A DNA stretch of 20,417 nucleotides from Paraphysomonas bandaiensis (lineage: Eukaryota > Protista > Chrysophyceae). Within the stretch, counting starts at the first letter, position 1. Each line of letters starts with the position of its first letter. The stretch lies in NCBI GenBank assembly GCA_965644295.1, contig CBFFRP010000603.1, positions 1 to 20,417 of the forward strand, read 5' to 3'. The position numbers and the translations under genes were made by a program. Below are positions 1-20,417 of this stretch, piece by piece. Below the pieces are notes generated by a model. That model saw nothing but the letters and a program-made list of their open reading frames with translations, ran no database searches and was not told the origin of the DNA.

Positions 1-940
1 TTTGTTTTTAGCTATCTACGACTTTAGACTAGTGGTATCAAAGTTGCTAAATACTGAGTTTTCTCGGGACTGCTTGTGCATTGCTGCAAGCACCTTGGTG
101 CAACCATCCCTTGTGTTGGGCTTAGTCCGGTGGTCTTCCTTTGGGTAATGTCTCTGCCGGTCCGGAGCCACTTGTGGTCCGGGATGTGGAGGGTGGGGTT
201 TTGATTCGTGGGTGTGAGTCGGTGACAGGGGATCTGGGAGCTCCAGTCGTGTCTGGGTTTCGTTTGAAGGTGAGAGTCGCTTGTATCCGGGCCGGATTTG
301 CAGGCCTGCGTTGTGGGCGAGTTCGCGTGGGGGGCTTGGCTCTAGGGGTGGATGTTGCTTGAAGGAGTTGAAGGATTGCCGAGTTGGTGGTAGAGTGAGT
401 GCGGTGTGGTTGTGAGCTTGTAGGAGTCGAGGGTTGCGTCAGTGGTACGAGTGTTGTGATGTCTGCAGCCTCTGTTTTTGAGCATGTTCATCCCTCCGTT
501 GTAGAGAGGGAGTAGGATCTTGGTGACAAGATTGTTCGAGTTTGTGGAACTGATATTCGAGTAGTGGCGTGGAGAAGTTACTGCCAGGCGTTTTTCAGTT
601 GCGATGCGGTGAGTTGGCCGGTCCAGTATCTTTCAATTTGGGGTGTGTTAGGTTCCCATGCGGCCTTTGCCAATTTGTTCAGAGCGGTGTGGAACCATGG
701 GCGAGGGAGTCGTTGCCTGTGAAGTTTGTCTAGTTGTGATTGCTGTGTTTGGAAGGCGTGTTCGCGTATGAGGGCAATCTCCGGTTGTGTGCATTGGAGG
801 AGCATGTGTGCCATGTTGTCCGTTATGTGATCGCAGTCTGTGCATTTGGCGGCTGTCGTGAGGTCGTCCCCGGCTTTGCCCTTTGCTCGGTTTCTGCCGA
901 TTGCGTATGATTTGTCCCATACATATGCAGTTTCGCAGCA
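1..940 (-). mobile_element. Non-LTR retrotransposon (LINE) 3' fragment, degenerate ORF2 C-terminus
   Basis: Extending the 578..814 minus ORF upstream in frame reads YVWDKSYAIGRNRAKGKAGDDLTTAAKCTDCDHITDNMAHMLLQC. This contains CX2CX8HX4C, the zinc knuckle typical of the C-terminus of LINE ORF2. The minus strand is strongly C/A-rich. Downstream frames are broken by stops/shifts and end in a Pro/Thr/Arg-rich tail (...PKGRPPD*, stop at ~122). Confidence 0.7.
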
Positions 941-941
941 T

Positions 942-5981: not shown

Positions 5982-7265
5982 TTATGAATATGTTTTTCGA
6001 AGCCGATTTAGCGCATTTGCTTTTTCCATCGTATAATTTAACCGAGTTTTGGGGTCGGGTTCGTGTTCAATTTTTTGTAAATGAGCACCAATGAGCCATT
6101 TAACTCGTGTTTCGTCATTATCATGTGATAAAAATTTCCCGTCTTCGGACTCGACTTTATACTTTCCACCTCGTTTTGCAACCACCGTGTACAGACCAAC
6201 ACTCCACCGGATTGCAATTTGTTTGTAATTGTTATTTTTTTTACGTTCTCTTACTTCCGGTATGAGCTCTAGAAGATTTATACGAACAGTATCTCCGACT
6301 TTTATTGGATCATGTACACGACGCATCGCTTTTTGTTTCTTCGATTTCGAGTGAGTACCTGACCATATTGCAATTGGAATTCCCACCCCTTCTACATATG
6401 AATGGTTGTAACTTTCTTCCGCCTCAGGTATATAATGAAACCATTGCCGGTTTTTGTTACGGACCATAAGTCGACGAATAAGTGACCTGACATAGCCATT
6501 TGTACTCTCAACCAACGAAAGGGGTGTATAGGACATGTTTCGTTTGAGTTGTATACCATATTGTTCAGTAAAATCAGCTGAAAAGTTAAATTCACCTCCG
6601 TTGTCACACCGAATGACCTTAGGCCATGTATGATGGGGTATCGAATCAAGAAGCTGACCTATTTGTTTTTCAATTGAAGCGGCATTTTTCAACTTGGTTC
6701 GTCTCAACCATACTCGGCGACTGTACGAGTCTTGTACTGTTAATATATATCGCCAAACATTCGTGGGGTATGTGCCATCGAACTTTTTCTTCATGTAGAA
6801 ACTAAAATCAATGAGATCCATTTCCCATGCGCTATGTGGAGTCGTTTTATGAATATAAGACAACGTATGAGGTCTTGTTTTCGTTGTGGTATATTGGTAA
6901 TCTTCTTGTCGTTTCAAAAACTTGGCAATATCACTTTTCTTGATGCCTATGTATTGATGTTTTATTGTGTTGTACCATTTATTGATCCCACCCGGTACAA
7001 GTTCTTTATAGATAGTGGACAACACCTCGTCTATTTGCGACGGCAAAACGAATTGCAATTTCAATTCACCGTCCACATAAAATAGTTTATTATTTTTCAA
7101 TTTGAAATGTTCCGGTGGCCATCGTTTCTCAAACAAATCTTTCTGACGATCGGTTAAATTAGAATTCCGAGCAAATCCACCTGTTCGTCGGAAACGTATA
7201 ATATCATTGTGCACCGACTGATTATATTGCTTGCGATTCAGTTTATTTAAAAGTGCCGCATCCAT
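5982..7265 (-). CDS. Retroviral-like (rve) DDE integrase, Polinton type
   Basis: WEMDLIDF (D1), YILTVQDSYSRRVW, IRCDNGGEF (D2), LVESTNGYVR (E), YNHSY, and the C-terminal KVGDTVRI...RWS...YTV block typical of Polinton integrases. No obvious HHCC finger or chromodomain. Confidence 0.92.
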   Translation of the reverse strand: MDAALLNKLNRKQYNQSVHNDIIRFRRTGGFARNSNLTDRQKDLFEKRWPPEHFKLKNNKLFYVDGELKLQFVLPSQIDEVLSTIYKELVPGGINKWYNTIKHQYIGIKKSDIAKFLKRQEDYQYTTTKTRPHTLSYIHKTTPHSAWEMDLIDFSFYMKKKFDGTYPTNVWRYILTVQDSYSRRVWLRRTKLKNAASIEKQIGQLLDSIPHHTWPKVIRCDNGGEFNFSADFTEQYGIQLKRNMSYTPLSLVESTNGYVRSLIRRLMVRNKNRQWFHYIPEAEESYNHSYVEGVGIPIAIWSGTHSKSKKQKAMRRVHDPIKVGDTVRINLLELIPEVRERKKNNNYKQIAIRWSVGLYTVVAKRGGKYKVESEDGKFLSHDNDETRVKWLIGAHLQKIEHEPDPKTRLNYTMEKANALNRLRKTYS

Positions 7266-7294: not shown

Positions 7295-8041
7295 TTATCC
7301 ATCCACTATTATTTTTGACAAATCGAAGAATTCATTGTAATTCCGGCTTATCTTTTTTTGCATCAAGGGTGTCATGATGTCAAATTTCATAAAATCTGTC
7401 CTTTGTTCAGTACATACTCTATACATGCGGCGCAAATCAGCAATTGGAATTCCCAGTGCATATGTTTTTAAAATACGATTCAAATCCCCCACATCGGCCA
7501 GCGATTTGATTATAAGGTGTGTTAGATTCTTGCGGCAAAGATAGGGAATGTCATAAAACGATTGAGATATAAAACACGCAGTGATGTTATATTTGCGGCA
7601 CCTAATATAGTAATCACTGATCATATCAAGATTCCGTTTGCCACTCGTAATAATATCATCAAATACAACCAGTGTTTGCAATCCCGTCTTTTTTCCAGAA
7701 AGATCTTCCAACCTGAATTCGCTGGGTTTCTCAAAAAACTCAATGCTTGATCCCAATTGCTCTTTCAGAAATTTATATAACGGCTCGCTGTGGTCGGGAA
7801 TACACACGACAATTTTAGCAAACGTATCGGGCATCTTGGATATTAAATCAACAAGACACTGCGTTTTCCCAGTGCCACTACCACCAACAATGGCAAGACG
7901 GGCGGGGAGTGTGATTTGGTTTTGGTGAAAATTCGGATTTGGACATTCCGTCTTGGCCAGACCTCCAATTTTCTCGTACCAGTGGTAAACGGTATTGCGA
8001 TTGGTGGATACGGTTGTATTCTTAGACTTGCGGTTTGACAT
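7295..8041 (-). CDS. A32-like (FtsK/HerA) genome-packaging ATPase
   Basis: Walker A GGSGTGKT, Walker B LVVFDD, and the family-specific RKYNITACFISQSFYDIP..CRKN motif. Confidence 0.93.
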   Translation of the reverse strand: MSNRKSKNTTVSTNRNTVYHWYEKIGGLAKTECPNPNFHQNQITLPARLAIVGGSGTGKTQCLVDLISKMPDTFAKIVVCIPDHSEPLYKFLKEQLGSSIEFFEKPSEFRLEDLSGKKTGLQTLVVFDDIITSGKRNLDMISDYYIRCRKYNITACFISQSFYDIPYLCRKNLTHLIIKSLADVGDLNRILKTYALGIPIADLRRMYRVCTEQRTDFMKFDIMTPLMQKKISRNYNEFFDLSKIIVDG

Positions 8042-8069
8042 AATATTTTACTTTTATAAATACGTCTGT

Positions 8070-8226
8070 GTTTTTTTAATCGGGCGTCGGAATTGAATAT
8101 ATATATATAATCATTTTGACGCCCGATCCCTCCAAAATTGATTGCCGTAGAAGTTTTTTTTAAAAAAACACACATAAAATTTATATTCATTTCAAATCTA
8201 TGTGTATTTTTTTCAGCCAATCAGAA
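8070..8226 (+). repeat. Inverted repeat, left copy (157 bp) with internal hairpins
   Basis: Ungapped match to the reverse complement of 9866-10022 with 9 mismatches. Internal arms ATCGGGCGTC (8079-8088) / GACGCCCGAT (8118-8127) surround a (TA)n core. Confidence 0.97.
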
Positions 8227-8239
8227 ACAAGAATAGAAA

Positions 8240-9130
8240 TCAGGAACTATTTTTTACATATGATTGCATTGCTTCACCGACGGAGTGCCCCATTTCCTTT
8301 GCAGTTTGTGCCATTTCTTCCATGTTGGGTACATTTTTGTATTTATGTGACAAGTATGCCTTTCGAAGCATGGATGTTCCCACTTTTTTTCCAAATATTG
8401 CGTTTAGTCGTTGCGTGATTGTCGATGGTGTAAGTTTTTGTTGATTTTTGTTAAAGAAAACAAATTCCACGCGAAGACCTTTTGTAATCTTTTTCCATCG
8501 CTTGAGTAATGACAACACCTCTCGATCAATTTTGATACGCTGCGTCCCATACGTATCTTTTGTTTTATACCGCTGGAAAACAAACTCCCGTTTCTCCCAG
8601 TCGATATAATTATACTTTTTACTGGGTTGTAGCTTCAGTTCACTATAGTCGAGTGACCGCCGCGGGAGAACTCCCATCACCCCGCTGCACAACGATAGAA
8701 GAATAAAGGATTGTATCTCCTGTAGCTGTTCCATACTCAATTGTTTGACATACATTAGTTTCATAATTTTTGGTTTCATTTGCGCGTGTATTCGGACCAC
8801 CTCGGTAAAATCTACCCAATTGGCAGATTCGCGATCAGTTTTAGTTTGTTCTTTTTGTTTTGCATTGTAAATTTCAATATCTTCTTGCATGAGTCTACTA
8901 TATATGTCATTACCCGTGAGTATATAAAGGGCCGAACACGTCGTTTTACGTCGATTGATGTTTGGAATCCGTGTAATATAATCTATCAGTTGCTTTGTTT
9001 TATTTTGTATGTTGTCTTTACTAATACCCGTCGCATATAACGCGGAATTTATGAGTGACACGTACGTACGTACCGAACTGTCCGCCAATTTGGGTCGGTT
9101 AAAAAGAATAGTCTGTTTAATTGAATTCAT
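8240..9130 (-). CDS. Tyrosine recombinase (PLV-type YR)
   Basis: Catalytic residues in the expected order: R (LPRRSLDY), K (QRYKTKDTYG), second R (SMLRKAY, first His of HxxR replaced), H (MGHS) and terminal Y (MQSY). N-terminal helical domain (LADSSVRTYVS). Confidence 0.85.
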   Translation of the reverse strand: MNSIKQTILFNRPKLADSSVRTYVSLINSALYATGISKDNIQNKTKQLIDYITRIPNINRRKTTCSALYILTGNDIYSRLMQEDIEIYNAKQKEQTKTDRESANWVDFTEVVRIHAQMKPKIMKLMYVKQLSMEQLQEIQSFILLSLCSGVMGVLPRRSLDYSELKLQPSKKYNYIDWEKREFVFQRYKTKDTYGTQRIKIDREVLSLLKRWKKITKGLRVEFVFFNKNQQKLTPSTITQRLNAIFGKKVGTSMLRKAYLSHKYKNVPNMEEMAQTAKEMGHSVGEAMQSYVKNSS

Positions 9131-9185
9131 TGCTTTTTATTAAACGTCATATAAAAATACGACGCAACCATTCATACAAAACCAA

Positions 9186-9758
9186 TCATTTACAAATTTG
9201 AATTAGTTTTGCCTTTAGCACAATTCCACACTTGCCACATGATTTCCATGCATACACTTCCAAAATCATTCGAATCTTGGTTGATTTCGGAATGAGTTCA
9301 CACAGTGGGATTTCAGCCGTGATTTTTTCTTTGTCGGTTCCCAACACCCCAATTTTGGTGAAGTCGGGAATCGGTTTGCGATTTTTTTTTACCACGGGCA
9401 CCCGTATTGTGATCGTGTTTGGTTTCAAGTCATGAGATGTTAGTATTGGTTGATAATCCAAATCACTAAAAAGTGCCTCCAAATATTCGTCCAATTCTCT
9501 AAACGCACGATATTCAATCGATTCATAGGTAACCTGCAATTGAAGTTTTCTAAAATCCTTACCGCTGTCATATAAATCCGATGCGGCATAAGCAACTTTG
9601 AGTGGCTGCGTTTGAATGGTAAAGGCATGTTTATCATACTGAAACCCCGTCGTTTGAGCGAATGGAGTGTTCGACCAACGTTTGACAGTCAAAAGGGATG
9701 CATCGAAATTGTTGAGACGAATTGGTTTTGCTAACATGGTTTGGTATTCGGTAATCAT
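9186..9758 (-). CDS. Probable OB-fold ssDNA-binding protein 1 (NCLDV-type)
   Basis: Pattern FDASLL...YDKHAFTIQTQPL...FRELDEYL...YQPIL...TIRVP...LIPKSTKIRMILEV...KCGIVLKAKLIQI resembles large-DNA-virus SSBs. The track start (9890) lies inside the inverted repeat, so the real start is more likely ATG 9758 or 9737. Confidence 0.7.
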   Translation of the reverse strand: MITEYQTMLAKPIRLNNFDASLLTVKRWSNTPFAQTTGFQYDKHAFTIQTQPLKVAYAASDLYDSGKDFRKLQLQVTYESIEYRAFRELDEYLEALFSDLDYQPILTSHDLKPNTITIRVPVVKKNRKPIPDFTKIGVLGTDKEKITAEIPLCELIPKSTKIRMILEVYAWKSCGKCGIVLKAKLIQICK

Positions 9759-9865
9759 ATAAATTGTGATAATTGTGAGAGCAAAGCAACAAATATTGTG
9801 ATGAAAAAGTATGATTGTTGCACAGAATAGAGTTCTAAAATGAATGGTGTAGGTTGAATCCTCGA

Positions 9866-10022
9866 TTCTGATTGGCTGAAAAAAACACACACAGAATTTA
9901 AATGAATTAAAATTTTATGTGTGTTTTTTTAAAAAAAACTTCTACGGCAATCAATTTAGGAGGGTTCGGGCGTCAAAATGATTATATATATATATTCAAT
10001 TCCGACGCCCGAATAAAAAAAC
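9866..10022 (-). repeat. Inverted repeat, right copy (157 bp)
   Basis: Reverse complement of 8070-8226. Internal arms TTCGGGCGTC (9965-9974) / GACGCCCGAA (10004-10013). A second stem has arms AAAAAAACACACA / TGTGTGTTTTTTT. Confidence 0.97.
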
Positions 10023-10173
10023 TAAACTTCAAATCCTCGATTCTGATTCATGTGTTTTTTAAAAAATAAACTGGCACGGAATGTGGTGCGTTAGGGTGGA
10101 AATGAATTATCCTTATTTAGCATATATATATGCACTCTACTACCAACTACAGTAATGTCGCCGCGCTGTGTAA

Positions 10174-10833
10174 TTAATTACACAACGTAATACAACGCAC
10201 CGTAAGAACAATACTACATCCCCAACTCCCTTGGTACGCACAAGAAAAATTGAAAAGAATATTCACTTTGCTACCCACGGGAAATACACTGGGTAAAGAT
10301 TTGACAGATGAAGTAATATCGTTTCCGCGTTTGTCTATTATCAGCACTTCCGATGGGTCAGGTACCCCCCAGGGGCCCGACACCGTGGTTGGGATTTGTA
10401 AGGTGACAAATTTCGTATTGTCTTCTTTTTCTACCCTAAGCAGTGGAATGTAACCCCGCTCTTTAAGATTTTCTTTGCTGCGTTCCTGTGACACTAACTG
10501 GTTATCGATTGCTATTATATTGCTATAATTTGAACACGACAGCTCAACAACATTCACTCTAAAATATTTTCGAGTCAGATTTGTCTGTTTGCCAAAGTTG
10601 GGTGCAATTCGTACGCCATTGAGTTTAAACAACACTTCGCGCTGGCATGTTCTCTTTTTTTCAGTCGGTCCATAGAACATCGTTGACTTCAACGTATATG
10701 CACTAACTCGATCAAACGGATCGAATTGTATATGGGACGGATTAATGCCGCTTAGTCGCATGATCTTTTTTCCCTCCGTGGGGTTACGGTAGCACTTTTT
10801 GGTAGCCGATTTGCGTTGTTTGTCGGTTGTCAT
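10174..10833 (-). CDS. Probable OB-fold ssDNA-binding protein 2 (divergent paralog)
   Basis: Same architecture as SSB1: INPSHIQF...IIAIDNQLV...YIPLL...VTLQIP...VPD...FPVGSKVNILF...WGCSIVLTVRCITL. Confidence 0.6.
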   Translation of the reverse strand: MTTDKQRKSATKKCYRNPTEGKKIMRLSGINPSHIQFDPFDRVSAYTLKSTMFYGPTEKKRTCQREVLFKLNGVRIAPNFGKQTNLTRKYFRVNVVELSCSNYSNIIAIDNQLVSQERSKENLKERGYIPLLRVEKEDNTKFVTLQIPTTVSGPWGVPDPSEVLIIDKRGNDITSSVKSLPSVFPVGSKVNILFNFSCAYQGSWGCSIVLTVRCITLCN

Positions 10834-10956
10834 GGAATTGCTTCAGTGGATTTCTTTTTATATCAGTTTTGCAAATTATATATATAATCATTTTTTTTTA
10901 AAATTGCCTGATTCACACCAAAAAAAATGAAAGTATAATTGGTGCTCGCATGAAAA

Positions 10957-11136
10957 TTTGGTTTGCATCAAAAGAAAAAGTATAATGGATGGCTGAGAAT
11001 AAATGTGTCATTGTACTAAATTATACTTTTGAGACCTGGTGTCCGCGGAAAATTTTGGTTTGCATCAAAAGAAAAAGTATAATGGATGGCTGAGAATAAA
11101 TGTGTCATTGTACTAAATTATACTTTTGAGACCTGG
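10957..11136. repeat. Two identical 83-bp direct repeats (period 97), each with an 11-bp internal inverted repeat
   Basis: 10957-11039 = 11054-11136 (TTTGGTTTGCATC...GAGACCTGG). Arms AAAAGTATAAT / ATTATACTTTT are at 10976-10986 and 11020-11030 in copy 1. Confidence 0.97.
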
Positions 11137-11253
11137 CTGGTGCGGAGAATTACACGTATGATCATACCCCAACCCTAACCCTAATCGAAGAGTTTTTTAC
11201 TTTTGCTATCCCCCTAAAATGAGCTACATGTTTATACAAACTGCATACCCCCG

Positions 11254-11277
11254 CTAAATTAAACCGGTTTAATTTAG
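11254..11277. repeat. Perfect 24-bp palindrome
   Basis: CTAAATTAAACC|GGTTTAATTTAG, 46 bp beyond the stop of the 11324..12328 minus-strand gene. Confidence 0.95.
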
Positions 11278-11323
11278 AGTTGAAGGTGATTTTAGATTAT
11301 AAATTGATTGCTAATGGCCCCAA

Positions 11324-12328
11324 TTAAATCGTTGCTACTTGTTCTACAACGTAATTGTAATAATCAAGTACACCACGTGGTTTAAATTCTGATATAAATT
11401 TTGTGTTGATGTCATTCCATTCTGTGGGTGTCACCACCGCCCCTTTAAAATGAATCTTACGGAGAACATTACCTATGTGGGATATCAGTTCTCGCATCTC
11501 GCCAACTCTGGGGGTAGTGGATTCCCCAATTTTGGATAAATCAATTTTTAGGGCTTTCATGTGTGGGGCAATGTCACTTTTTTTGGTGGGGGCTCTACCC
11601 ATAGAGATAAGTAGTGATAAGTAACGCCCAAGTGCATCCACTTTAGGTGTTGCCTCTGCTTTTGATTCACCCGTCGGTATCTGCAATTCGGCCACAAGGC
11701 GGTCAGATAGAGCAAGTACTTCGTTTCGAGTTGCAACATCATTCAAGCTACGAATCAATTCTTTAATTCGATCCTTTTGGCTCGCAGACATAGTCGTAAG
11801 TGCCTCCACTTTCTCGATACCTTTTCGGACCGACCTATCTGTCGCAACCCCTCGTTCCGCAAGTGTTCGCAACATGTTTGTAATACGGTCTTTAAATTCC
11901 TGTTCCACTCTCGGATTGGCGGCGACATGTGTCACTCCTCTATTTGCCCGGTGGACTGCTTTGAATGAATTGAGGAAATTATCAAACAATTCTAACGTAA
12001 CTAGATCTCTCCGGTAAGTGTTTTCAAAATCATGCTTAAATTTTGGAAACGTCTGATTCACAAATGTTATGTCGTCCGGACTTATACTATCAATGATTCG
12101 AGAAAGAGCCGTGGCGTTCACGATTTGTTTCATATTATCATAAAAAAGTTGACGCATTTTATTTATATTTTTTGCCAATACCCTTGGGGGAATTTCATGA
12201 TCTTCCACTATTCGTGTAAAATTACCATCGTATTTGTTCTCTTGGTCCGTAATCAAGCGATTGTGTTTTGCGCGTAACTGCAGATTCTGGATATGTTGTG
12301 CTCTGTATTTATCACTGTCGAGTGGCAT
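11324..12328 (-). CDS. Hypothetical helical protein (334 aa)
   Basis: Long ORF with an AT-rich leader ((ATT)7 at 12327-12347), divergent from the capsid gene block. No recognisable catalytic motif. Confidence 0.75.
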   Translation of the reverse strand: MPLDSDKYRAQHIQNLQLRAKHNRLITDQENKYDGNFTRIVEDHEIPPRVLAKNINKMRQLFYDNMKQIVNATALSRIIDSISPDDITFVNQTFPKFKHDFENTYRRDLVTLELFDNFLNSFKAVHRANRGVTHVAANPRVEQEFKDRITNMLRTLAERGVATDRSVRKGIEKVEALTTMSASQKDRIKELIRSLNDVATRNEVLALSDRLVAELQIPTGESKAEATPKVDALGRYLSLLISMGRAPTKKSDIAPHMKALKIDLSKIGESTTPRVGEMRELISHIGNVLRKIHFKGAVVTPTEWNDINTKFISEFKPRGVLDYYNYVVEQVATI

Positions 12329-12885: not shown

Positions 12886-13722
12886 ATGTTGCGCGAATCA
12901 TCCACTGTAGTTTTAAATCAGAGCAATTTGGTCTCATCCAGCACAAATCAAAACGAATTTGTCCACCAATTTCCAACCGCGATTCGTTTTAAAAACGCAA
13001 GTGTCAGTTTGGTGCAACTCAGCATGTACAACAGTTTCTTCAACATTACAAATGCACAAGGTAACAACAGAATATCGTATACTTTCCTTGATGAATCCGC
13101 CGATGTAGTAATACCCGATGGCTACTATAGCATTGATAGTCTCAGTAATTATCTTGCGTTCGAAATGAAAAAAAATCACCACTACCTTCACAATTCGCAA
13201 ACAAACAACGACATTTTTTATGTGGAATTGCGAACCAATGCTGTATACTACAGTGTCGAAATCGTGTTCTATGATATACCGACAAGTGCGATGGCATCAG
13301 CTGAGAATCTGACAAAGCCTGCTTTGGCAACTTGGTCGTTTCCTGTGACAGCTGAACCAATGAATGTCATGATCAATTCAAAAGTCGATGACATCTTGGG
13401 AATTTCACAGGGTACGTATAGCGACTATCAACTATCGACGTACACACCACAAGTCAACCCATTGAGTAGTTTGGTGTTGCACTGCGATTTAGTGAGTCAC
13501 AAGCTATCGTATCCAAGCGATGTACTATATTCATTTCCAGTAAACAACACGTCGTTTGGAACCGATTTTGATCTTCACCCTAATCAATTAATTCGGAGTC
13601 GCGTGGCAGATGGATTATACACAAAATTTAAAATCCGAATCACCGACCAAAACAATGAATCAGTGTATGTGCGCGACACGGATATTGTGATGCTTTTGCT
13701 GTTTGAATACGATACAGAATAA
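12886..13722 (+). CDS. Minor capsid protein (penton, single jelly-roll)
   Basis: VSLVQLSMYNSFFNIT, IPDGYYSIDSL, LVLHCDLV, VLYSFP, IRITDQN motifs characteristic of Polinton/PLV/virophage minor capsid proteins; typical size. Confidence 0.9.
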   Translation: MLRESSTVVLNQSNLVSSSTNQNEFVHQFPTAIRFKNASVSLVQLSMYNSFFNITNAQGNNRISYTFLDESADVVIPDGYYSIDSLSNYLAFEMKKNHHYLHNSQTNNDIFYVELRTNAVYYSVEIVFYDIPTSAMASAENLTKPALATWSFPVTAEPMNVMINSKVDDILGISQGTYSDYQLSTYTPQVNPLSSLVLHCDLVSHKLSYPSDVLYSFPVNNTSFGTDFDLHPNQLIRSRVADGLYTKFKIRITDQNNESVYVRDTDIVMLLLFEYDTE

Positions 13723-14087: not shown

Positions 14088-15733
14088 ATGTCAACAACAA
14101 AAAAAGATCGACTCATCACTCGCACTGGAAAACTTGAACAACCGTCACCTCTAGAAGAACTACAGTGGATATATGTCAGCGACTCTAATCAGGGACAGTA
14201 TTCAAATGGCGTGTGCAAAATCAGCACCGAAATTCTATCCAACGGCGGAAAACTTGTTGATTACAGTCAAGCATATCTGTCTGTCCCCTACGTGATTGTT
14301 TTGACCAAGATGAACGCCGCTAATCCGGCCGTGGATGTCAATCTAGCCGCTTTAAATGATTACAAGGTAGCCCTCAAAACACTTCCCGTAAACTCCCTTC
14401 GTGTTGACATGAATAACTCAACACTTGTGGAGAGTACGAATTATACCAATATGTACATGTCCGCGCTGCATTATTTAGGAGCAAATGAGGAGGATGATGC
14501 ATACGAGACGGAACTTTTCATGAAAAAAGACAGTCCTGACTCTTGGATGTTCTCACCCGCGGTTGGATCGAACGGCTTGGGATTATGCAATAATATCAAC
14601 AAGTACGCACACGTTTCAGGTACGGGGAGTTCGGCTGCCACCACACAGACAAACGAGGGTATGCTTTCCAAGCAGGTAGCAATGAGTAACCAGTTTGTAC
14701 AAGGAACTCGCCGCGTAACAGACATGTTCAATGCGGCATCTATTTCAACCACCGAGGTCTGTAAAATTGTCAAGGATGCCAATCGAATAGAATTTCATCT
14801 CCTCGTGAAAATTCCACTACACAAGTTATGCCCATTTTTTGGTGAATTGCATCTGAACAGAGGATCCTTTTTTAAATTGGAACTCGGTCTGTGTGAGAGT
14901 GAATTTACAATTACGTTAAATGCCAATGCTCCTACCATCACATCGTCGCTTATTCATCAAAATGCATCCCCCATTATGCTCTCTTCTTTTGCCATTGACA
15001 ACGGGTGTTACGACATGCGCGATAATGGAACATTAACTGTCAGTGCGTCGGTCGTGAAGCCAACATTTCCGGCACATCGCTCGCTTAATATTGTGCATGA
15101 TCAAACTGACGTGAGGTTACATGTTCCCGTCGTGCGACTTACCCCTTCCGAAGAAGAAAATTGGCTTTCCATAAACAAAACCATTCAATTTTCTTATCCC
15201 ACATTCTCACTTTACGAAACCACCGTTGACGCCCAGGGAAGACTTAATTACCAAATATTAGCGGGTATCATTAATCCACGATCCATTCTTATCACATTCC
15301 TCAGTTAACGGCGGTAGAAAATGCCATGGTACCACCACTTGAAAGTCCATATTTTTCCGCGCCAAATTGTGCATGTCCAAGCCTTTTCAGTGATTTTAAC
15401 GTGAGTGTCGATGGAATCAATCTTTATCAAAACAATCTTTCTTCGTCCGTTGATTTTTACCGTCAAATACAAGGTCTATATGCATCAAATAGCAATAATA
15501 TGACTGATAATATCAAAGGTGGACTAACCTTTCGAGACTTCAATTCCGGTTTATACAAATATTACTTCGTCGATATATCGAGGTCCGCGGATCCAGATTC
15601 ATCACGTCCCCGTAACATACAGATCAAATTTAAAAACGAAGGGTTAAAAGCCTACACATTGTACATATTTATCACATCCATGAATCGAATTGAAATAGAC
15701 GGTTTGACAGGTGCTCGTTTAACTGCAGTTTAA
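14088..15733 (+). pseudogene. Major capsid protein (double jelly-roll), split by a 1-nt frameshift near 15299
   Basis: ORFs 14088..15308 and 15326..15733 are in different frames. Adding one C in TTCCTCAG gives ...NPRSILITFPQLTAVENAMVPPLESPY..., a ~548-aa protein. Motifs WIYVSDSNQGQYS, VDYSQAYLSVP, KIPLHKLCPFF, FNVSVDGINLY and YYFVDISR fit PLV MCPs. Confidence 0.85.
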
Positions 15734-16494: not shown

Positions 16495-16968
16495 ATGGAA
16501 CTAGGAATTACAACATCCTCACAGTTGACTCGATTGGGAAAACAAATGGGGTTTCGAATATATGTGGTTGGTAAACACCAATTAGCCCATCGAACTCCCA
16601 TTCAAAATGAAATGATTATTGTCAACATCGATGACGGCTCTAAAGGTACACATTGGGTCGCCATATTTTCACGGGGTAAACGTTATTTATATTTCGATTC
16701 ATTTGCCCTCGCGCCACCAACAAATATCGCGGCGTATATTAAACGTGTGAATGGAAACAAAAAAATACCCTACAACAATTCCAAACTACAGGATCCTCGT
16801 GCAGAATCGTGTGGTTATTGGTGTGTGCTCTGGTTGGACTATATGAGAAAGCGATCCATTCTAACAAAATGGTCACTTACCCGAATTCACAACGTATTCA
16901 CTTCACTATTCAATAATACGGAACAAAACGAAATCATATTGCACAAACTATACTCTGGCTTTTTTTAG
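16495..16968 (+). CDS. Adenovirus-like (adenain/Ulp1 clan CE) cysteine maturation protease
   Basis: IVNID..GTHWVA (His), YFDSFALAPP (Asp), LQDPRAESCGYWC (oxyanion Gln, catalytic Cys). Confidence 0.93.
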   Translation: MELGITTSSQLTRLGKQMGFRIYVVGKHQLAHRTPIQNEMIIVNIDDGSKGTHWVAIFSRGKRYLYFDSFALAPPTNIAAYIKRVNGNKKIPYNNSKLQDPRAESCGYWCVLWLDYMRKRSILTKWSLTRIHNVFTSLFNNTEQNEIILHKLYSGFF

Positions 16969-17462: not shown

Positions 17463-17639
17463 CCTCTCACCTCACAAGAAAATCGATTCAAATTGGCTTA
17501 AAACAAAGACATGCAAGGAATAACATATAGAATGGTACGCATCTACAGAATGAACCAAGTTCATTTTATATCACACACACCACACCGCATGCATTCTTGC
17601 ATACACCGTGTATACCACACGTATTATGACAATAAAACA

Positions 17640-18506: not shown

Positions 18507-20417
18507 AAGGGTGTTATAAAAGCCCACGGCTTTACACATGAGGATGGTGGTCTGCTATACAAGACTAACAGAGTGGTGATAAGGAAGGGACTTATTGTGG
18601 GATACCGGTCGTTGGTTACTGGTAACCAGGTTCAAGTGGAGGATAAAACTCCTATTCATATTGCTGACATCAAGAAGATGACAGAGGATCTTGCGCAGAG
18701 GGTGGTTAGGGCCAGAGTTACTGACAACCGTGACGGCGGTATCAGCGGAGTGGTGCCACAGCAGTCGGAAAGTGGGCCGGTGCAGCCCCAGGCTGACTCA
18801 GCATTACCTTCGGGGGAAGGGACCCCTGCCGAGAATCATCCGCACGGCAAACGCGCAAGAACTCCAAGGACGGTAACGAATGTGTCGGTGTTAGGACAAA
18901 TCCATCATTTGAGTGATGAGAGTGATGTGAGTGACCTTTTACAGGAGGCAGACTCAGTGTGGATGTCAGCGGAAGAGTCGACAGTGCCTCAGACACATCG
19001 TGAGTCCTTGGAGAGTGCCGAGCACAGGGAGTGGAGACGAGCTCGCCGTGTAGAGCGAGAGGGTTTGGCGAAGCGAGATACCATGGAGGTGACTCGTATA
19101 CCGGACGGAGTCGTCCCACTGCACTCCAAGTACGTCTATGGAAAGAAGTACGATAAGGAGGGAGAGGTCCGCCGATATAAGGCTCGTCTTGTAGCAATCG
19201 GTTGTGGACAGCAGTCGAGTGGTTGGGCGAACCATTTCGCACCCGTTGTTAAGGGGGTAACAGTGCGACTGTTAATCGCCATAGCTTTCGTGATGAACAT
19301 GGTAATTCATCAACTGGATGTGTCTAACGCATTTCTATATGCAGATATAGAGGGGGATGTATATATGAAGGCAACTCCGGACTTTCAGCTGCCTGAGGGG
19401 TACTGCTTTAAGTTGAAGAAGTCGTTATACGGGCTTCGGAGTTCCCCGCGGTCGTGGTGGAAAACATTGGATAAATTCATACGATCTATGCATTTTAAAC
19501 CATGTGTATTAGACCCGTGTTTGTATTATCAGTATAAGGGCGATGAATTGATATTATTAACGATATATGTGGATGATATCCTAGTGTTAGGTCGTGATGT
19601 CAACATAGTGAAGGATATTAAAGCTCAACTGTGTGCCCGGTTTGATATGAAGGATATGGGCGAGATGGAACATTTTCTGAATGTTCGAGTCACAAGAACG
19701 CCAGAGTATATTCGTCTTGACCAATCAGTATATGCGGCTAAGATCTTAGAAAAGTTTGAAAAGTATCTTGGGCCACCGCGAAAGGTACGGAAGAGTCCTC
19801 TACCGGCGGAAGCAATGGATTTAGTGGCAAAAGGGGCGCGGCATGAGCATACCGAGGAGGAACAGCTTATAGTAGATAACTTCCCATATCGGCCGCTGAT
19901 AGGTGCATTACTATATCTATCGATGAACACGAGGCCGGATATTGCCTATGCAGTGGGAGTACTGTCTCGGTTCAGTAATAAGGTGAATATTGAAGTATGC
20001 AAGCTATTAACACATGTATGGCAATATATTCGTGGTTCTATTGACAAAGGGATTCAATATGGGAGTAGACGGTTCGACTTCCATATGTTTACTGACGCGG
20101 ATTGGGCGGGAGATCAGCTCTCCAGGAAGTCCACGTCGGGGTACGTTGGGTTTGCAGCGGGAGGGCCTATAGTCTGGCAGTCCAAACTGCAGACGACAGT
20201 GGCAACGTCAAGCATGCAGTCTGAGTATCAGTGTATTTACTCGGGTCTCCAAGAAGTGCTATGGGTTCGGGGGGTGACGGGTGAGATTAAGTTGAGGCTC
20301 ATCAAACCCACACCATTCTTCATCGACAGTCAGAGTGCCCAGGATTTGGCCGAAAACCCAGTGTTTCACAAGAAGTCGAAGCACATTGAGATTAAGTATC
20401 ACATGGTGAGAGAGCAC
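18507..20417 (+). mobile_element. pol: Ty1/Copia LTR retrotransposon pol fragment (RT + RNase H), 5'-truncated, runs off window
   Basis: Manual translation gives a stop-free frame from 18507 to the window end (absent from the track because it has no stop). It reads RYKARLVA, QLDVSNAFL, KLKKSLYGL, IYVDDIL (YVDD at 19566-19577), TRPDIAYAV, FTDADWAG..RKSTSG and KSKHIEIKYH. No gag, protease, integrase core or LTR is recognisable upstream. Confidence 0.95.

What the first reader, a model, noticed from the sequence alone, without database searches (positions are those of the whole stretch)
8070..10022. Tyrosine recombinase + SSB cassette bracketed by 157-bp inverted repeats inside a PLV: candidate self-inverting (Flp/FRT-like) or resolvase module
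Seen: 8070-8226 and 9866-10022 are ungapped inverted copies (148/157 identical). They enclose only the YR gene (stop codon 13 bp from the inner edge of the left copy) and one SSB gene. They are internal to the element, not terminal, and no TSD flanks them. Known: tyrosine recombinases acting on inverted sites invert the intervening DNA (FimB/E switches, yeast 2-micron Flp/FRT, where inversion during replication amplifies copy number), and related protelomerases cut dyad sites with AT-rich centres. Inference: the repeats carry the YR target, so the recombinase could flip its own gene, isomerise or amplify the viral genome, resolve replication intermediates, or move as a nested YR cassette. I am not aware of a described inversion system in Polintons/PLVs.
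Basis: partly seen in the sequence, partly recalled or inferred. Interest (0 to 1): 0.88.

Follow-up and report, generated by a model that had tools for sequence, protein, structure and literature searches.

The report
Swappable hairpin repeats in protist viruses
The two inverted repeats around this virus's recombinase gene are real, but they are two copies of a multi-copy double-hairpin DNA unit that varies in number and neighbours between copies of the virus and likely serves as a joint for shuffling gene blocks rather than as a dedicated on/off flip switch.

Summary
In detail: 8070-8226 and 9866-10022 are inverted copies (148/157) around a tyrosine recombinase (YR; Xer/Cre/lambda-Int fold, R158-K189-R256-H282-Y291) and an SSB-like gene, inside a Gossevirus-like PLV probably of a Paraphysomonas-type host. 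The two-site switch reading is not supported. The arm is a ~175-bp double-hairpin unit. In public runs it also occurs head-to-tail, is missing at the right-hand site in one variant, and has other neighbours. In 108 related virus clusters, 19 carry genome-specific 100-340-bp repeats, mostly hairpins. Their copies are mosaic, sit in either orientation, and are replaced wholesale between close relatives. Only 4 of 69 YR genes lie in a close inverted pair, and each of those genomes has further copies. A flipped cassette could not be tested: only short contigs were served. Best reading: dispersed, interchangeable hairpin units at gene-block boundaries that recombine with each other, with the YR the likely but unproven enzyme. 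An origin/promoter role without the YR is a close rival. The link between YR presence and repeats vanished under a tree control. New variant of a known kind; interest 0.5.

The parts
8070..8234 (.). Left copy of the double-hairpin unit, between the YR stop and the ATPase start
   Evidence: folds at z -5.7 against 200 shuffles
9858..10022 (.). Right copy, inverted relative to the left copy
   Evidence: z -6.7
8079..8127 (.). Outer dyad of left copy: 10-bp GC-rich arms around an AT-rich centre with a (TA)n run; 8080-8126 identical in both copies, end bases changed together (A..T versus T..A)
9965..10013 (.). Outer dyad of right copy
8162..8213 (.). Inner AT-rich dyad of left copy; holds 6 of the 9 differences between the arms
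9879..9930 (.). Inner dyad of right copy
9857..9873 (+). 17-bp direct repeat, first copy (unit period 175 bp)
10032..10072 (+). Second copy of the 17-bp repeat (10032-10048) opening a truncated third unit; continues as a full unit in runs X6, X9, X12
8240..9130 (-). Tyrosine recombinase, 296 aa, core-binding plus catalytic domain; R158, K189, R256, Y291 invariant in 49 of 49 rows, H282 in 38 of 49
9186..9758 (-). SSB-like protein (lead only), 190 aa; a 98% identical protein is in a transcriptome record (P0064)
   Evidence: model failed
10174..10833 (-). Probable paralogue of the SSB-like gene, outside the arms
   Evidence: 21% over 76 aa, pairwise E 3e-5
7295..8041 (-). A32-like packaging ATPase, left neighbour
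5982..7265 (-). rve integrase of the host element
12886..13722 (+). Conserved ~280-aa gene, probable minor capsid protein (label inferred from size and conservation)
14088..15733 (+). Major capsid protein in two pieces (14088-15308, 15326-15733)
16495..16968 (+). Probable cysteine protease (His..Gln..Cys motif recalled; no Pfam hit), conserved in relatives

Best explanation
The arms are two copies of a multi-copy, roughly 175-bp double-hairpin unit that lies between gene blocks of this virus and likely acts as a recombination joint, with the neighbouring tyrosine recombinase the probable but untested enzyme. Shown: the unit exists in tandem, absent and differently flanked forms in this virus family, and related viruses carry genome-specific hairpin repeats whose copies are mosaic. 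Inferred: exchange between direct copies adds or removes units or blocks, exchange between inverted copies would invert the block between them, and exchange between genomes swaps modules. Flipping of YR+SSB would then be one possible by-product and would barely change expression, since each gene keeps an arm on the same side. Because near-identical viruses carry unrelated hairpins at the same sites, any YR recognition would have to rest largely on shape or flanking bases, not on the hairpin sequence.
For: Arm outer end joined to arm inner start (head-to-tail) in X5 and X6, and continuation of 10048 into a further unit in X6, X9, X12; a contig in X1 skipping 9873-10051; other flanks at 9863 (X5, X6, X9, X12) and 10021 (X1, X6, X9, X12) that are not in the window. 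19 of 108 related clusters carry a non-coding repeat of at least 100 bp at 85% or more, 18 of them YR-positive. Four-gamete-incompatible site pairs among copies: 104 of 231 (L075), 29 of 66 (L099), 4 of 10 (L118). L099 and L118 have four repeats at matching gene positions whose sequences gave no BLAST match to each other in the part that was shown. L004/L005 (96-97% identical) differ at three intergenic sites, two holding unrelated hairpin families. Gene blocks are reordered and inverted between repeats in L073/L083 and L046/L063. YR enclosed by a close inverted pair in 4 of 69 versus 2 of 255 core genes (p 0.02, no tree correction).
Against: No direct evidence that the YR touches the unit. 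The YR/repeat association (11 of 25 versus 1 of 18) rests on 4 independent pairs and is not significant on the capsid tree (p 1). L004/L005 share a near-identical YR region yet have unrelated hairpins. YR orientation changes 11 times in 49 genomes, but ATPase (5 in 16) and protease (6 in 38) also flip. The YR excess of repeats is mostly at its 5' end (22 of 69 versus 25 of 255), which a shared promoter explains, whereas in the window the arm is at the 3' end. Recurrent mutation or hairpin-templated repair can also give four-gamete conflicts. L046 ends inside a 96-bp identical copy, so its inversion may be a mis-join.
Confidence: 0.42

Rival explanations
1. The units are replication origins and/or promoter-terminator elements (baculovirus hr-like), read by the replication or transcription machinery; they are homogenised and rearranged by ordinary homologous recombination, and the YR works elsewhere (attachment site or genome ends).
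For: Dispersed, AT-rich, palindromic, variable-number units match the description of hrs (PMC4535591, abstract and opening). The right arm lies between two SSB-like genes. Each arm has a CCAAT-like box, a (TA)n run and AAAATTGA-like words; that motif is an early promoter upstream of the YR in PgVV (10.1101/2022.07.28.501842, passages). Hairpin sequence does not track the YR (L004/L005). One YR-negative cluster (L123) has a strong repeat.
Against: Strong repeats show no bias among co-directional, convergent and divergent gaps (28/9/5 versus 46/19/16; p 1.0 and 0.32) and no fixed orientation to transcription (6 of 7 genomes mixed), which argues against a directional promoter or terminator, though not against an origin.
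Confidence: 0.3
2. The units are small selfish hairpin elements (MITE-like) that insert and replace each other at preferred intergenic sites; two happen to bracket the YR.
For: Presence/absence with a 17-bp duplication at the right-hand site; unrelated hairpins occupying the same sites in L004 and L005.
Against: Repeats keep matching gene positions between L099 and L118 while their sequence is replaced, which looks like conserved function; the left arm has no full flanking duplication.
Confidence: 0.12
3. YR+SSB with its two arms is a nested mobile module that entered an rve-encoding virus.
For: The element already has an rve integrase; in X12 a 275-base contig appears to join the second SSB-like flank and an arm to a different inner sequence (inferred from lengths, 21+68=89); internal repeats bracket replicase modules in other polisuviruses (10.64898/2026.10.13.758929, section 13).
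Against: No target duplication; no contig joining the two outer flanks was listed; arms exist at more than these two sites; GC content shows no clear step at the cassette.
Confidence: 0.09
4. One reading: a dedicated two-site switch in which the YR inverts its own gene to isomerise or amplify the genome, as Flp does.
For: Correct geometry; intact YR; a 47-bp identical dyad in both arms; same layout in L027, L099, L118, L073.
Against: 65 of 69 YR homologues lack it; all four that have it carry 3 to 7 copies; L099, L118 and L132 keep the same YR orientation; the outer dyad's centre is a near-symmetric (TA)n run, which would not impose direction (inference from recalled YR rules).
Confidence: 0.07

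Closest known systems
Internal repeats bracketing replicase modules in Polisuviricotina (bioRxiv 10.64898/2026.10.13.758929, section 13 read) and YR/primase-helicase end modules beside inverted repeats (PMC11296320, passages)
   Same: Non-terminal repeats that set a DNA-handling module apart from the capsid module and are proposed to mediate module turnover
   Different: Here the bracketed genes are YR plus an SSB-like gene, the repeat is a multi-copy double hairpin with tandem and empty forms, and relatives carry up to 7 strong copies that are replaced wholesale; the text read does not describe that (figures and supplements not seen)
Baculovirus homologous regions (hrs) (PMC4535591, abstract and opening paragraphs)
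   Same: Dispersed, AT-rich, imperfectly palindromic, variable-number repeats
   Different: Origin/enhancer activity untested here; units mostly single at each site; different virus phylum
Yeast 2-micron Flp/FRT and E. coli FimB/FimE switches (recalled)
   Same: YR gene beside or between inverted repeats with dyad sites
   Different: Those use two defined sites and show both isomers; here more than two units exist and no second isomer was seen; Flp is a weak fold match (Z 6.7)
Integron IntI/attC and plasmid shufflons (recalled)
   Same: One YR with many sequence-variable sites between genes; an integron integrase is among the tied top fold matches (2a3v, Z 14.4, rmsd 3.9, 239 aligned)
   Different: Units are not one per gene, not in one orientation, and no cassette array exists; fold rank does not show mechanism
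OLV11-like YR of PLVs and virophages, proposed integrases (PMC4642659, passages)
   Same: Small stand-alone YR in a PLV; a recombination hotspot was mapped next to the YR gene in PgVV
   Different: Direct homology to OLV11 not tested; this element also has rve

Membership tests
Tyrosine recombinase superfamily | Core-binding plus catalytic fold | tested here: met
   Model pLDDT 92; Z 13-15 to XerA, IntI, XerH, Cre, lambda Int over 220-258 residues
Tyrosine recombinase superfamily | R-K-H-R-H/W-Y catalytic set | tested here: met
   R158, K189, R256, Y291 in 49 of 49, H282 in 38 of 49; the first His position (253) is S here and D/N/S/T in the family; roles assigned by recalled spacing
Protelomerase | TelA/TelK-like fold as best match and a near-perfect palindromic target | tested here: inconclusive
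   TelA/TelK Z 7.0-7.4, well below other YRs; dyads are imperfect; hairpin ends not testable
Flp/FRT- or Fim-type invertible switch | Exactly two inverted target sites | tested here: not met
   Tandem, truncated and differently flanked units in this virus family; per-genome copy number not resolved
Flp/FRT- or Fim-type invertible switch | Both orientations present in the population | not testable with these tools
   Only contigs were served; no listed piece spans an arm with both of the window's flanks
Flp/FRT- or Fim-type invertible switch | Arrangement conserved with the recombinase | tested here: not met
   4 of 69
Baculovirus-type hr | Dispersed AT-rich palindromic repeats | tested here: met
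Baculovirus-type hr | Origin and enhancer activity | not testable with these tools
   needs cell assays
Gossevirus group of PLVs | MCP, mCP, ATPase plus cysteine protease; Sputnik-like MCP model; stramenopile host | tested here: inconclusive
   Gene set shared with the relatives; atlas lead Sputnik_MCP_1st on 17% of a cluster; no HMM hit to solved capsids; P0064 labelled with taxon 36769, Paraphysomonas. No reference Gossevirus MCP was compared
NCLDV-type SSB | OB fold | tested here: inconclusive
   Atlas neighbours 0.93-0.96, Nucleocytoviricota, DUF2738/DUF5871 on 10-18% of members; DUF2738 = SSB is recalled, a paper search found nothing; model pLDDT 33

The most novel reading that the evidence does not exclude
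These viruses carry an integron- or shufflon-like system: the YR recognises sequence-variable hairpin units by shape, helped by the adjacent SSB, and uses them to invert, excise and exchange gene blocks, its own gene included. That would be a programmed genome-shuffling machine in a eukaryotic virus and a mechanism for PLV mosaicism.
Probability: 0.18. Interest if true: 0.85.

Novelty: new variant of a known kind. Interest (0 to 1): 0.5.

Why it matters
PLVs and virophages are highly mosaic and the role of their YRs is only assumed to be integration. A family-wide class of homogenised, swappable hairpin units at module boundaries gives a concrete candidate for the joints of that mosaicism, or for the unmapped replication origin, and this locus offers a ready enzyme-substrate pair (intact 296-aa YR, two natural site variants) for a plasmid test.

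Tried and rejected
No whole genome is held for the window, so other copies could not be read. Single-protein scans for the YR (viral; metagenome) and MCP found no close relative. An arm pattern gave 0 metagenome hits; 3 viral hits to a 17-mer matched only over 17-18 bases and were dropped; 21 hits to the outer-dyad pattern were GC-rich and shared no protein with the window. No Rfam match at 7900-11400. Sigma-70 scan below chance and not apt for a eukaryotic virus. SSB model unusable. No longer homologue of ORF 942-2351 (weak negative). No MCP match in the phage collection. Three look-ups of earlier findings were empty. The opposite-strand joint 8071/9857 was considered as an inversion junction and rejected: inversion between the arms makes no new junction at their edges, and this joint reads as arm end to arm start. 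Allele mixing between arms (e.g. the left-type base at 9886 on an SSB-side contig in X9) was not counted as inversion evidence. Contig depth over the arms exceeds the flanks but is no copy number and was used only as a hint. YR-negative status of truncated loci is uncertain.

Full report
Observation. The YR stop lies 13 nt from the left arm. Each arm holds two imperfect dyads and folds far better than shuffles (z -6.7 and -5.7). Of the 9 differences, 6 lie in the inner dyad, 1 between the dyads, and 2 are the paired end bases of the outer dyad, which change together. A 17-bp direct repeat 175 bp apart brackets the right arm and opens a truncated third unit.

Genes and host element. ORF 8240-9130 has 63 homologues among 385 candidates. 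A 49-row alignment keeps R158, K189, R256 and Y291 invariant and H282 in 38 rows; the model (pLDDT 92) matches XerA, an integron integrase, XerH, Cre and lambda Int at Z 13-15, protelomerases at 7.0-7.4 and Flp at 6.7. The enclosed second gene is SSB-like only by a lead; its model failed. It has a weak paralogue outside the arms. The element has rve and an A32 ATPase and shares capsid, probable minor capsid and probable protease genes with the IMG/VR relatives. That set and a Sputnik-like capsid lead fit the Gossevirus group as described in PMC7805220, PMC10120064 and 10.64898/2026.06.19.733378 (passages read); no reference capsid was compared. A 98% identical SSB-like protein comes from a transcriptome record labelled with the taxon number of Paraphysomonas, so the host is probably such a chrysophyte.

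Other copies in public runs. Twenty of 24 listed runs hold part of the stretch, all as contigs; I laid 6 of them (X1, X3, X5, X6; X1, X6, X9, X12). X1 and X3 may be the source material; X5, X6, X9, X12 are from four other studies. They show (a) an arm's outer end joined to an arm's inner start in X5 and X6, and position 10048 running on into a further unit in X6, X9 and X12; (b) an X1 contig skipping 9873-10051, i.e. the right site without its unit; (c) different sequence beside the inner edge (X5, X6, X9, X12) and the outer edge (X1, X6, X9, X12), absent from the window. In X12 the lengths suggest one contig carries the second SSB-like flank, an arm and the foreign inner sequence; that is my inference, not a tool statement. 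X6 also shows frameshifts and an insertion in its YR copy. Two 47-bp blocks identical in both arms stop short contigs from linking outer and inner flanks, so inversion is untested. Both outputs were cut to the best-supported rows.

Relatives. I took the best 80 of 288 YR loci and the best 80 of 454 capsid loci, which collapse to 108 clusters besides the window. Nineteen carry a non-coding repeat of at least 100 bp at 85% or more, 18 of them YR-positive. Units shown are genome-specific and mostly fold as long hairpins. L099 and L118 have four repeats at matching gene positions with dissimilar sequences. L004 and L005, 96-97% identical, differ at three intergenic sites, two occupied by unrelated hairpin families. 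Copies are mosaic in the three genomes tested (104 of 231, 29 of 66, 4 of 10 incompatible site pairs). The window's layout recurs in 4 of 69 YR loci against 2 of 255 core genes, two of the four being close kin, and all four have further copies. Among pairs with long matches at 78% or more, 5 had segments in both orientations; only L046/L063 was examined at base level, and its breakpoint falls in the repeat upstream of the YR, but L046 ends in an identical 96-bp copy, so a mis-join is possible.

Results against a YR role. Strong repeats occur in 11 of 25 YR-positive and 1 of 18 YR-negative capsid-anchored clusters of 12 kb or more (p 0.006), but the tree yields only 4 independent pairs and no signal. 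YR orientation changes 11 times among 49 genomes, ATPase 5 in 16, protease 6 in 38, minor capsid 2 in 44: shuffling is general. The excess of repeats at YR 5' ends (22 of 69 versus 25 of 255) may reflect a shared early promoter, as in PgVV (10.1101/2022.07.28.501842, passages). Against a directional promoter or terminator for the long units: no bias by gap type and mixed orientation.

Mechanism. Shown: a multi-copy hairpin unit, variable in number and neighbours, next to an intact-looking YR. Inferred: copies recombine and act as joints between gene blocks; the YR is the likeliest enzyme (0.42), an origin or regulatory role with ordinary homologous recombination is close behind (0.30), then selfish hairpin (0.12), nested module (0.09) and dedicated switch (0.07). 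If 8227-9865 flipped, every gene would keep an arm on the same side, so an expression switch is unlikely.

Prior work. 10.64898/2026.10.13.758929 (passages and section 13) reports non-terminal repeats bracketing replicase modules; PMC11296320 (passages) proposes IRs as YR substrate and origin; PMC4642659 (passages) treats PLV YRs as integrases; PMC4535591 (abstract, opening) describes hrs. Searches turned up no report of an invertible segment or of dispersed swappable hairpin repeats in PLVs; most hits were seen only as listings, figures were not visible, no supplements were read, and bioRxiv supplements are closed, so such a description may exist there. Flp/FRT, Fim, attC and shufflon properties are recalled.

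Verdict. Real feature, partly right interpretation; new variant of a known kind; interest 0.5, rising to 0.85 if YR-driven, shape-based shuffling is shown.

Noticed in passing
window 10940-11133: Two tandem 97-bp copies (94%) in the divergent-side gap upstream of the second SSB-like gene.
   Followed up: no
window 11157-11277: Short segment with telomere-like repeats and a perfect 24-bp palindrome (11254-11277); contigs of several runs leave the window at about 11157 and 11263-11266, so it is probably a separate repeated element.
   Followed up: no
window 14088-15733: Capsid gene is in two out-of-frame pieces (break near 15308-15326): decay, an intron or a sequencing error.
   Followed up: partly
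window 1-941 and 942-2351: GC-richer sequence unlike the virus abuts ORF 942-2351, which looks cut at its start; no homologue found. The element's left end is outside the window or disrupted.
   Followed up: partly
window 18678-20417: Copia-type reverse transcriptase (RVT_2, E 7.5e-59) to the right of the virus.
   Followed up: partly
window 17483-17511: Degenerate match to the inner start of the arm just after the last viral ORF (E 4.3, may be chance).
   Followed up: no
window 9954-10021 (run X9): A 293-base contig at depth 820, against 19-83 for neighbours, carries the outer dyad plus 225 foreign bases: a much more abundant context of the outer dyad, perhaps a terminal repeat or a transcript.
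   Followed up: no
window 8290-8294 (run X6): Loose ends on both sides with a 5-base overlap suggest a transposon inserted in that strain's YR copy, which also has frameshifts.
   Followed up: no
L004:2960-3085 and 10488-10605; L005:2923-3062, 7806-7916, 10485-10624: Unrelated 110-140-bp hairpins occupy the same sites in two 96-97% identical viruses, next to a shared short motif.
   Followed up: partly
L119 (18 sites), L091 (13), L079 (12), L103 (11): Shorter, weaker intergenic repeat families; in L119 most are oriented with the downstream gene, like a shared promoter.
   Followed up: partly
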